Part shown: in pieces, positions 23,740-23,817 of the stretch | Position numbering within the stretch: position 1 is the first letter of the stretch | Layout of the letters: every line of letters starts with the position of its first letter | DNA from: a virus | Taxonomy: Duplodnaviria > Heunggongvirae > Uroviricota > Caudoviricetes | Direction: 5' to 3' (one strand) | IMG/VR virus record: IMGVR_UViG_2617270964_000016 | Span: 1 to 37,320 of that record | DNA length: 37,320 bases | Made by a program: the position numbers and the translations under genes | The notes under the pieces: model-generated | Told to the model about the DNA's origin: nothing | Database searches by the model: none | The model's input: only the letters and a program-made list of their open reading frames with translations

Positions 23740-23817
23740 TTAGTCTTTTTACGTAATACAGCACGCCGCGTAATGCGGTTTTTTTGTGCCCGCGTTCTGG
23801 CGGGCACAGGAGGTTTT

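What the first reader, a model, noticed from the sequence alone, without database searches (positions are those of the whole stretch)
23764..23817. Tandem hairpins between major capsid and connector genes
A weak terminator-like hairpin with T7 run (about 23766-23785) is followed by a perfect 8-bp stem (GTGCCCGC-gttctg-GCGGGCAC, 23786-23807) abutting the AGGAGG Shine-Dalgarno of the next gene. This may set the capsid-to-connector expression ratio by partial termination or by mRNA stabilisation.
Basis: seen in the sequence. Interest (0 to 1): 0.2.

Follow-up and report, generated by a model that had tools for sequence, protein, structure and literature searches.

The report
Conserved terminator-plus-hairpin cassette after capsid gene
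The two hairpins are real and strongly conserved: a small Rho-independent terminator followed by a stronger stem-loop sits between the capsid and neck genes of an SfV-type prophage, an ordinary kind of phage expression signal whose site is already annotated in phage SfV.

Summary
The window is an SfV-type prophage. The 78-nt spacer between the HK97-type major capsid gene (22510-23739) and the gp6-like connector gene (23818-24141) holds four adjacent elements:
- hairpin 1, GCCGC-GUAAU-GCGGU (23765-23779)
- a U7 tract (23779-23785)
- hairpin 2, GUGCCCGC-N6-GCGGGCAC (23786-23807)
- the Shine-Dalgarno (SD) sequence AGGAGG (23808-23813)

The element is identical in phage SfV, whose GenBank record already marks a "putative rho-independent terminator" here. 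That annotation covers hairpin 2, not hairpin 1.

Homologous junctions from 15 Enterobacterales genomes of about ten named genera keep both stems and the U-tract almost invariant, while the adjacent spacer, the loops and codon third positions drift. Hairpin 2 shows compensatory changes, and the G·U pairs only work in the sense-strand RNA.

A Q antiterminator drives the late operon, and high-copy tail genes lie downstream. I therefore favour a terminator-type 3' end or decay boundary that enriches capsid mRNA over simple partial termination.

SD masking by the U-tract is predicted in this window but is not energetically conserved across the family. Nothing here tests function.

Verdict: a known kind of element, modest interest.

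The parts
22510..23739 (+). Major capsid protein gene (HK97 type). Its message is the one the cassette would end or protect.
   Evidence: ORF. Pfam PF05065 Phage_capsid, E=7.1e-65. 99% identical to SfV orf5 'capsid'.
23765..23779 (+). Hairpin 1: GCCGC / GUAAU / GCGGU. Four G-C pairs plus a closing G·U pair.
   Evidence: dG -7.5 kcal/mol. 98.3% of cells are paired across 48 distinct homologous junctions. Arm identity is 0.97-1.00 in a protein-anchored set of 19 sequences. Loops in relatives include the stable tetraloops GAAA, GUAA, GAGA and UUCG.
23779..23785 (+). U-tract (T7) directly abutting hairpin 1. With hairpin 1 it forms an intrinsic-terminator-type signal. It is also a single-stranded GG|UUU stretch between two hairpins.
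   Evidence: Six T columns are invariant in 48 sequences. Column identity is 1.00.
23786..23807 (+). Hairpin 2: GUGCCCGC / GUUCUG / GCGGGCAC. A perfect 8-bp stem.
   Evidence: dG -17.1 kcal/mol, z -4.65. 97.9% of cells are paired, and three pairs change on both sides, for example the base pair G-C 22 / A-U 14 / G·U 5. The loop varies in sequence and length, 4-12 nt. It lies within the stretch annotated in SfV as a 'putative rho-independent terminator'.
23808..23813 (+). Shine-Dalgarno sequence AGGAGG of the connector gene, flush against the 3' arm of hairpin 2. It can pair with the U-tract, extending the helix across 23780-23813.
   Evidence: the 14-pair extended helix folds at -22.8 versus -17.1 kcal/mol for hairpin 2 alone. 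The opening energy of -10..+3 is 9.1-9.3 kcal/mol, the highest of 21 late genes. The U-tract contributes only about 0.7-1.4 kcal/mol on average across 46 relatives.
23818..24141 (+). Head-tail connector/adaptor gene (gp6-like, SfV orf6).
   Evidence: Pfam PF05135, E=2.6e-11. The N-terminus ML(L/I).. is conserved in relatives. The longer ORF from ATG 23773 starts in the hairpin-1 loop and is not conserved.
14784..15536 (+). Context: Q-type late antiterminator gene, upstream of the lysis and structural genes on the same strand.
   Evidence: Pfam PF03589 Antiterm, E=3.8e-54. It corresponds to SfV gene Q.

Best explanation
The spacer carries a conserved two-part RNA cassette that marks the end of the capsid message inside a long, Q-antiterminated late operon.

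**Part 1.** Hairpin 1 plus the invariant U7 is a small Rho-independent terminator signal.

**Part 2.** Hairpin 2 is a much more stable stem-loop wedged between the U-tract and the ribosome-binding site of the connector gene.

**Proposed mechanism (inferred, not shown).**
- RNA polymerase that is not Q-modified stops at hairpin 1/U7.
- Most Q-modified polymerase reads through.
- On read-through RNA the two hairpins act as a decay boundary. 3'-to-5' exonucleases that chew back from downstream cuts are stopped at hairpin 2 and hairpin 1. The heavily translated capsid segment therefore outlives the neck and tail segment.
- The single-stranded U-tract between the hairpins (GG|UUU, matching the RNase E motif RN|WUU) is a likely endonuclease entry point. 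Cutting there would leave hairpin 1 as a 3' cap on capsid mRNA and hairpin 2 as a 5' cap on the downstream mRNA.
- Net effect: more capsid mRNA per neck-gene mRNA, without starving the tail genes of transcription.
- In this particular phage, U-tract:AGGAGG pairing may additionally damp connector translation.

**Shown.** The anatomy, the conservation, covariation in hairpin 2, the sense-strand specificity, and the presence of Q.

**Inferred.** Termination, nuclease blocking, RNase E cleavage, and any effect on protein ratios.
For: - **Terminator anatomy.** There is a GC stem, a 5-nt loop and U7 directly after the stem.
- **Conservation in a set chosen by the connector protein only, not by the motif.** 15 of 19 Enterobacterales loci, from about ten named genera, carry both hairpins.
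- **Column identity in that set.**

| Region | Mean column identity |
|---|---|
| Hairpin-1 arms | 0.97-1.00 |
| U7 tract | 1.00 |
| Hairpin-2 arms | 0.89-0.93 |
| Loops | 0.64-0.69 |
| Spacer between stop codon and hairpin 1 | 0.36 |
| Codon third positions | 0.59-0.63 |

- **Pairing.** 98% of cells are paired in both stems. Three hairpin-2 pairs change on both sides. When the 3' partners are slid by 1-3 columns, pairing falls to 42-52%.
- **Strand.** The many G·U/U·G pairs (for example 13 at columns 48:61 and 39 at 19:34) would be A·C mismatches on the other strand. The selected structure is therefore the sense RNA.
- **Stable tetraloops.** Hairpin 1 in relatives carries GNRA and UUCG tetraloops.
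- **Q antiterminator.** Q lies upstream on the same strand, and high-copy sheath and tube genes lie downstream. This argues that the useful effect is post-transcriptional.
- **A sister lineage.** SfII, SfIV and ST64B have a strong GC hairpin without a U-tract right after a different capsid gene. This shows that a stable hairpin, not termination as such, is the recurring feature.
- **Literature precedents.** The malE-malF 3' protective hairpin, and the papBA RNase E cut (RN|WUU) upstream of a 5' protective hairpin, are both described in PMC5927463. A terminator inside the P22/L late operon after the procapsid module has "roles not known" (PMC8022706).
Against: - No transcript data were available, so 3' ends, cleavage and half-lives are all untested.
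- Hairpin 1 alone is not energetically unusual (z -1.0).
- An invariant U7 is what termination needs and is not required for a mere exonuclease barrier, so real termination may matter more than I assume.
- Sequence-level invariance of the GCCCG/CGGGC core goes beyond what structure alone requires. It could point to a specific binding factor that I have not identified.
- In some other phage families a similar cassette lies upstream of the abundant gene (tail tube or capsid). That fits the 5'-cap half of the model but not the 3'-cap half.
Confidence: 0.45

Rival explanations
1. Plain partial transcription termination. A fixed fraction of polymerases stops at hairpin 1/U7, so all genes downstream of the capsid gene receive less mRNA. 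T7's Tphi terminator works this way right after its capsid gene 10.
For: - The anatomy is that of a canonical small terminator, and U7 is invariant in 48 of 48 distinct junctions.
- SfV's own record calls this site a putative rho-independent terminator.
Against: - A Q antiterminator lies upstream on the same strand. From general knowledge of lambdoid phages, Q-modified polymerase reads through intrinsic terminators.
- Sheath and tube genes, needed in high copy, lie downstream.
- The model gives no role to hairpin 2, the stronger hairpin, which is nearly as well conserved as hairpin 1.
Confidence: 0.2
2. Translational throttle. The U-tract pairs with the purine-rich SD across the base of hairpin 2, in the manner of a 'FourU' element. 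This masks the connector gene's ribosome-binding site so that a low-copy neck protein is made sparingly.
For: - The extended 14-pair helix is the predicted minimum-free-energy and centroid structure.
- The connector RBS has the highest predicted opening energy of 21 late genes: 9.1-9.3 kcal/mol against a median near 4.5.
- That energy falls to 4.4 kcal/mol if the RNA starts at hairpin 2.
- The SD abuts hairpin 2 in nearly all relatives. Short-context folds of three relatives show the same helix extension.
Against: - Across 46 relatives the mean opening energy is an unremarkable 5.7 kcal/mol. Replacing the U-tract in silico changes it by only 0.7-1.4 kcal/mol on average.
- Part of this window's high value comes from an outer helix (ACAGCA/UGCUGU) that is paired in only 44% of cells across the family.
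- U pairs with any purine, so the 91% pairing of this helix is uninformative.
- There is no Rfam FourU match, nor any other convincing Rfam match.
Confidence: 0.1
3. Safety terminator. The element exists to stop stray transcription that did not start at the Q-controlled late promoter, for example in a lysogen. This would keep neck and tail genes silent, while the element stays invisible to Q-modified polymerase during lytic growth.
For: - The authors of the phage L genome paper propose this as one of two possible roles for intra-late-operon terminators (PMC8022706).
- It is compatible with Q and with the invariant U7.
Against: - It does not explain hairpin 2.
- It does not explain why the element sits precisely after the capsid gene in several unrelated capsid/connector combinations.
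- The SfII-type lineage has a hairpin without a U-tract at the same place.
Confidence: 0.1
4. A DNA-level feature. Under this idea the short conserved sequence is a linker that promotes exchange of head and neck modules between phages, or a cruciform or protein-binding palindrome, and not an RNA signal.
For: Mosaic joints fall exactly at the cassette:
- Homology between SfV and phiP27 begins at 23764.
- The same hairpin-2 variant (ATGCCCGC-acagtgtt-GCGGGCA) is found behind two different capsid genes and two hairpin-1 variants, and in front of two different connector genes (L008, L125, L120, L155).
Against: - G·U pairs and compensatory changes preserve pairing only on the sense strand.
- The loops are free to vary in sequence and length.
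- Recombination at a conserved stretch is an expected by-product of conservation, not a reason for it.
Confidence: 0.04

Closest known systems
The 'putative rho-independent terminator' annotated in Enterobacteria phage SfV (U82619.2 / NC_003444, positions 5547-5584)
   Same: It is the same locus, and the sequence is identical over window 23740-23830. It lies between orf5 (capsid) and orf6.
   Different: The annotated span equals window 23785-23822, that is hairpin 2 plus AGGAGGTTTTATGCT. It treats the TTTT in the SD-to-start-codon spacer as the T-run. In relatives that TTTT is not conserved (for example AGGAGGATCCTATG and GGAGAAAGTCTATG). Hairpin 1 with its invariant U7, which is not annotated, is the element with true terminator anatomy.
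Intra-late-operon terminators after the capsid or procapsid gene module in other phages (T7 Tphi after gene 10; the predicted terminator at the end of the procapsid module of P22-like phage L)
   Same: A terminator-type hairpin sits immediately downstream of the most abundantly needed structural gene, inside one long late transcription unit (PMC6938266; PMC8022706).
   Different: T7 uses its own polymerase and has no Q-type antitermination. For P22/L the authors state that the roles are not known. Neither case is described as a tandem hairpin flush with the next gene's SD.
Differential-decay boundaries in E. coli operons: the malE-malF 3' protective hairpins, and the papBA RNase E site upstream of a 5' protective hairpin
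   Same: These are stable intercistronic stem-loops next to an unstructured U-rich RN|WUU-type site, downstream of a highly expressed gene. The predicted outcome is unequal mRNA levels from one transcript (PMC5927463).
   Different: Those cases have mapped ends and measured half-lives, and here nothing is measured. The present element also carries a full terminator U-tract. It is not a REP sequence as I recall the REP consensus; I did not run a REP comparison.
FourU-type SD-masking hairpins (Rfam RF01795)
   Same: A run of U is predicted to pair with AGGA/GGAG of the SD at the base of a hairpin.
   Different: There is no Rfam match. The U-run here doubles as a terminator tail. The masking energy is small and inconsistent across relatives. 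Temperature response is untested.

Membership tests
Intrinsic (Rho-independent) terminator: hairpin 1 + U7 | A GC-rich stem of at least 4-5 bp with a short (3-8 nt) loop on the transcribed strand | tested here: met
   GCCGC/GUAAU/GCGGU has four G-C pairs plus one G·U pair and folds at -7.5 kcal/mol. 98.3% of cells are paired in 48 relatives.
Intrinsic (Rho-independent) terminator: hairpin 1 + U7 | A U-tract of at least 5 starting 0-2 nt after the stem | tested here: met
   T7 at 23779-23785 directly abuts the stem. Six to eight T's are present in all 48 relatives, with column identity 1.00.
Intrinsic (Rho-independent) terminator: hairpin 1 + U7 | RNA 3' ends and polymerase release at the U-tract | not testable with these tools
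   No transcript data are held. This needs Term-seq or in vitro transcription.
Intrinsic terminator: hairpin 2 (as annotated in SfV) | A U-tract immediately after the stem, conserved in relatives | tested here: not met
   The stem is followed by AGGAGG and then TTTT, 6 nt away. Relatives have AGGAGGATCC, GGAGAAAGTC or GGAGATTTAT and lack the run in many cases.
FourU RNA thermometer / SD-masking hairpin | A match to the curated covariance model (RF01795) | tested here: not met
   cmscan at E<=10 over 23400-24200 gave only three weak unrelated matches (sR30, isrK, bxd_5).
FourU RNA thermometer / SD-masking hairpin | U residues paired to the SD with a meaningful, conserved energetic cost of opening | tested here: inconclusive
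   In the window the opening energy is 9.1-9.3 kcal/mol, the highest of 21 late genes. The family mean is 5.7 kcal/mol, and the U-tract contributes about 0.7-1.4 kcal/mol.
papBA-type RNase E site with a 5' protective hairpin | An unstructured RN|WUU site closely upstream of a stable hairpin | tested here: met
   GG|UUU lies at 23777-23781 in the U-tract, 5-7 nt before hairpin 2 (-17.1 kcal/mol). The motif definition comes from PMC5927463. This is a sequence match only.
papBA-type RNase E site with a 5' protective hairpin | An RNase E-dependent 5' end and a longer half-life of the downstream segment | not testable with these tools
   This requires rne-ts 5'-end mapping and rifampicin chase.
Known Rfam RNA family of any kind | A score at or above a family's gathering threshold | tested here: not met
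   The best score was 14.3 bits against a gathering threshold of 38.

The most novel reading that the evidence does not exclude
The most novel reading not excluded is that the unit "terminator hairpin - U7 - R-UGCCCG...CGGGC-R hairpin - SD" is a portable expression-boundary cassette. On this reading it has spread among unrelated proteobacterial phages and brackets their most abundant structural genes, and the near-invariant GCCCG/CGGGC stem of hairpin 2 is read by a specific host or phage factor rather than acting as a generic structure.

**Leads.**
- A scan of viral contigs for T6-RTGCCCG-N4-16-CGGGCR, with hairpin 1 and the SD left unspecified, hit the 120-locus limit. An arm-swapped control gave 15 loci.
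- About 40 distinct hits lie outside the SfV group. They typically have a GC hairpin before the T-run and sit just upstream of tail-tube, capsid or scaffold-like genes.
- Relatives of one tail-tube family, collected by protein only, keep T-run + GTGCCCGC..CGGGC in their closer members.

**Caveats.**
- The hits are partly related to one another.
- GCCCG/CGGGC in this orientation is, as I recall, the commonest terminator stem, so the control is imperfect.
Probability: 0.1. Interest if true: 0.5.

Novelty: already known. Interest (0 to 1): 0.2.

Why it matters
This would be one more documented case of how a phage gets hundreds of capsid subunits but only a dozen neck subunits from a single long late transcript. 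It would also give a concrete, compact element of about 45 nt for testing that.

The roles of terminators inside antiterminated late operons are explicitly described as unknown in the phage literature (PMC8022706). The cassette is well conserved and has a cleanly separable terminator, U-tract and second hairpin. That would make it a convenient model for asking whether such sites work by termination, by mRNA decay boundaries, or by translation.

Practically, the comparison shows that the SfV terminator annotation is placed on the wrong hairpin. It also shows that head/neck module exchange among these prophages happens at this cassette.

None of this is surprising to a specialist.

Tried and rejected
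- **Outer helix.** The fold of the 94-nt stretch pairs ACAGCA (23758-63) with UGCUGU (23819-24), which would bury the start codon. I rejected it because only 43.8% of cells are paired across 48 relatives.
- **SD masking as the main function.** I downgraded this after family-wide opening-energy calculations.
- **Hairpin 2 as the terminator (the SfV annotation).** Rejected, because the T-run after it is not conserved.
- **A promoter in the spacer.** The sigma-70 scan found none near 23740-23818, and the stretch upstream of hairpin 1 is the least conserved part (0.36 column identity).
- **Bidirectional terminator or antisense function.** Reading the sequence, the minus strand has an A-run, not a T-run, after the hairpin complements. 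The G·U pairs also fail on that strand.
- **Known RNA family.** Rfam gave nothing. The weak isrK match (12.4 bits against a 50-bit threshold) ends at the U-tract (23785), so it probably reflects the terminator-like 3' end.
- **Longer connector ORF.** The ORF from ATG 23773, inside the hairpin-1 loop, was rejected because that ATG is absent from relatives whose loops are GAAA, GUAA or UUCG.
- **The original SfV paper.** I tried to read it by DOI and by a guessed PMC id. It is not held.
- **Literature searches for transcript data.** Searches for data on this phage group or for capsid-3'-UTR sRNAs found nothing relevant.
- **Pattern control.** The arm-swapped pattern is informative but imperfect, because natural terminator stems have an orientation bias (my recollection).

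Full report
**1. What is in the sequence**

The major capsid ORF runs 22510..23739, with its TGA stop at 23737-39. It matches Pfam PF05065 at E=7e-65. The next gene starts at ATG 23818 and matches PF05135, the gp6-like head-tail connector.

- hairpin 1: GCCGC 23765-69 / loop GTAAT / GCGGT 23775-79
- a T7 run at 23779-85
- hairpin 2: GTGCCCGC 23786-93 / loop GTTCTG / GCGGGCAC 23800-07
- AGGAGG at 23808-13, followed by TTTT and the ATG

Folding energies:

| Segment | dG (kcal/mol) | z | Shuffles as good |
|---|---|---|---|
| Hairpin 1 alone | -7.5 | -1.0 | 35/200 |
| Hairpin 2 alone | -17.1 | -4.65 | 0/200 |
| Both, 55 nt | -30.3 | -4.4 | 0/200 |

The U-tract pairs with AGGAGG and lengthens hairpin 2 to 14 pairs, at -22.8 kcal/mol.

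The hairpin-2 pattern occurs once in the window, against 0.03 expected. Only one longer loop-containing perfect inverted repeat exists in the 18.5-kb late region, at 35951-35978, after the last late ORF. The generic terminator scan flags both hairpins but is not enriched overall, with 14 sites against 11.5 +/- 3.3 in shuffles.

**2. What the window is, and what is already on record**

The 1-kb region around the site is 99% identical to Shigella phage SfV. About 259 of 5,426 complete E. coli genomes hold most of it. The element itself is identical in SfV.

The SfV GenBank record already carries a "putative rho-independent terminator" at 5547-5584. That span equals window 23785-23822, which is hairpin 2 plus AGGAGGTTTTATGCT. 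The site is therefore known at the annotation level. The annotation, however, takes hairpin 2 and the TTTT of the SD-to-start-codon spacer as the terminator.

**3. Comparative evidence**

*Individual relatives.* The tandem architecture is present in four diverged relatives:
- Salmonella phage F1055, 75% identical over the region
- Edwardsiella phage EPP-1, 66% identical
- an 84%-identical E. coli prophage
- phiP27, which has a different capsid gene

*An unbiased sample.* To avoid selecting on the motif, I collected loci by the connector protein alone from one genome per species. Of 19 Enterobacterales loci:
- 15 carry both hairpins. They come from Mixta, Silvania, Atlantibacter, Kosakonia, Buttiauxella, Serratia, Citrobacter, Edwardsiella, Lonsdalea, Kluyvera and unnamed Enterobacteriaceae.
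- 3 are SfII-type, with a small ORF in between.
- 1 has only hairpin 1 plus T6.

*Column identity.* In a protein-anchored alignment of 19 junctions:

| Region | Mean column identity |
|---|---|
| Spacer between stop codon and hairpin 1 | 0.36 |
| Hairpin-1 arms | 0.97-1.00 |
| U-tract | 1.00 |
| Hairpin-2 arms | 0.89-0.93 |
| Loops | 0.64-0.69 |
| SD | 0.57 |
| Codon third positions of flanking genes | 0.59-0.63 |

*Pair counts.* On 48 distinct junctions, hairpin 1 is 98.3% paired and hairpin 2 is 97.9% paired. Three hairpin-2 pairs change on both sides:
- the base pair: G-C 22 / A-U 14 / G·U 5
- columns 48:61: C-G 33 / U·G 13 / G-C 1 / U-A 1
- columns 42:67: U-A 42 / U·G 4 / C-G 1

Sliding the 3' partners by 1-3 columns drops pairing to 42-52%.

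*Other features.*
- Hairpin-1 loops in relatives include the stable tetraloops GAAA, GUAA, GAGA and UUCG.
- Hairpin-2 loops vary from 4 to 12 nt.
- The frequent G·U pairs would be A·C mismatches on the other strand, so the selected structure is the sense-strand RNA.
- The T-run that the SfV annotation relies on is not conserved, whereas U7 after hairpin 1 is invariant. Hairpin 1 plus U7 is therefore the element with terminator anatomy.

**4. How it most likely works**

Two facts about context matter.
- The window encodes a Q-type antiterminator (PF03589, E=4e-54) at 14784..15536. It lies upstream of the holin, terminase and head genes on the same strand (SfV gene Q). From general knowledge of lambdoid phages, late transcription by Q-modified polymerase ignores intrinsic terminators.
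- The genes downstream of the site include Mu-like sheath and tube genes, which are needed in high copy. A substantial transcriptional step-down here would be costly.

I therefore prefer a post-transcriptional reading. The cassette gives the capsid segment a nuclease-resistant 3' end. The single-stranded U-tract between two hairpins (GG|UUU, matching RN|WUU) may offer an RNase E entry site that leaves hairpin 2 as a 5' cap on the downstream RNA.

Both halves have well-studied E. coli precedents, malE-malF and papBA (PMC5927463). A sister lineage (SfII, SfIV, ST64B) has a strong GC hairpin without any U-tract immediately after its different capsid gene. This suggests that the stable hairpin is the recurrent requirement.

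[quoted passage not shown] It offers partial termination, or stopping of non-antiterminated transcription, as possibilities (PMC8022706). T7's Tphi after gene 10 is the classic termination precedent (PMC6938266).

All functional steps here are inference.

**5. The SD-masking idea**

In this window the connector RBS (-10..+3) has the highest predicted opening energy of 21 late genes, at 9.1-9.3 kcal/mol against a median near 4.5. It drops to 4.4 kcal/mol if the RNA begins at hairpin 2.

This does not hold across the family:
- Across 46 relatives the mean is 5.7 kcal/mol.
- Replacing the U-tract in silico changes it by only 0.7-1.4 kcal/mol on average.
- Part of the window's value comes from an outer helix that is paired in only 44% of cells across the family.

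I keep SD masking as a minor, lineage-specific possibility.

**6. By-products**

Mosaic joints fall at the cassette.
- SfV/phiP27 homology starts at 23764, whereas SfII-type homology starts at the connector start codon.
- The hairpin-2 variant ATGCCCGC-acagtgtt-GCGGGCA occurs with two capsid types, two hairpin-1 variants and two connector types.
- In phiP27-type phages the capsid stop codon lies in the hairpin-1 loop.

**7. A possible wider pattern (not established)**

- A scan of viral contigs for T6-RTGCCCG-N4-16-CGGGCR reached the 120-locus limit. An arm-swapped control found 15 loci.
- About half of the 94 distinct hits are the SfV group.
- Most of the others again have a GC hairpin before the T-run. 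They precede tail-tube (PF08813, PF16460), capsid (PF05065, after the protease gene) or scaffold-like genes.
- Protein-collected relatives of one tail-tube family keep T-run + GTGCCCGC..CGGGC among their closer members. More distant members keep only a terminator-like hairpin plus T-run right before the SD.
- The hits are partly related to each other, and this stem orientation is the usual one for terminators, so this remains a lead only.

**8. Verdict**

The kind of element is ordinary and the site is already annotated. What is added here:
- the correct assignment of the terminator to hairpin 1 plus U7
- the strong cross-genus conservation and covariation of a two-hairpin cassette
- its role as a recombination joint

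Interest is low to modest.

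Noticed in passing
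window 29868-29895: A second terminator-like hairpin lies inside the late operon, between the tape-measure gene and orf15 (Mu N-like). It is TCCCAC-UCCG-GUGGGA followed by T6, running straight into the ATG at 29893 with no obvious SD. Its RBS opening energy is the second highest of the 21 late genes, at 7.6-8.0 kcal/mol.
   Followed up: partly
window 24138-24548 (SfV orf7, record 6014-6310): The head-closure gene probably starts at ATG 24138, overlapping the connector stop codon (ATGA). The Pfam PF05521 match covers residues 16-117 of this longer ORF. The SfV records start the gene 114 nt later, which leaves an artificial 110-nt 'intergenic' gap.
   Followed up: partly
L006 700-716 (phiP27) and L116, L154, L135, L120: In phiP27-type phages a different capsid gene runs into the cassette, and its TAA stop codon lies in the loop of hairpin 1 (GCUGC-GUAAU-GCGG). 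A ribosome finishing the capsid protein would therefore melt the terminator hairpin.
   Followed up: no
L008, L125, L120, L155, L006 versus window 23764-23818: Head/neck module exchange happens at the cassette. Hairpin-1 variants, hairpin-2 variants, two capsid types and two connector types occur in several combinations. The apparent crossover points are in the T-run and at the 3' edge of hairpin 2.
   Followed up: partly
L004 457-476, L005, L007 445-463 (SfII, SfIV, ST64B): This sister lineage has a single strong GC hairpin (GGGGCGCG-gaac-CGCGCCCC) 8 nt after a different capsid gene. The 54-nt stretch containing it folds at about -22 kcal/mol. The hairpin has no U-tract and is followed by a 66-aa ORF of unknown function before the connector gene.
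   Followed up: partly
L246-L262 (viral contigs, GC-rich siphovirus-like), about 60 nt upstream of locus position 601: A similar unit, terminator hairpin - T6-8 - GTGCCCGC..CGGGC, sits between a tail-terminator gene (PF13554) and the tail-tube gene (PF08813). In three close relatives the 3' arm is gone but TTTTTTGTGCCC(A/G)C remains. More distant relatives keep only hairpin + T-run directly before the SD.
   Followed up: partly
L177, L203, L230 (viral contigs): The same T-run + RTGCCCG..CGGGCR motif lies between a ClpP-like prohead protease gene and an HK97-type capsid gene. Here it is upstream of the abundant gene rather than downstream.
   Followed up: no
window 35951-35978: A perfect 10-nt inverted repeat with an 8-nt loop (CCCTCTATCG / CGATAGAGGG) lies just after the last late ORF, which ends at 35942. 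It is probably the end-of-operon hairpin.
   Followed up: no
window 23707-23785: There is a weak Rfam match to the Hfq-binding sRNA isrK (12.4 bits against a 50-bit threshold, E=6). It ends exactly at the U-tract, so it most likely reflects the terminator-like 3' end only.
   Followed up: no
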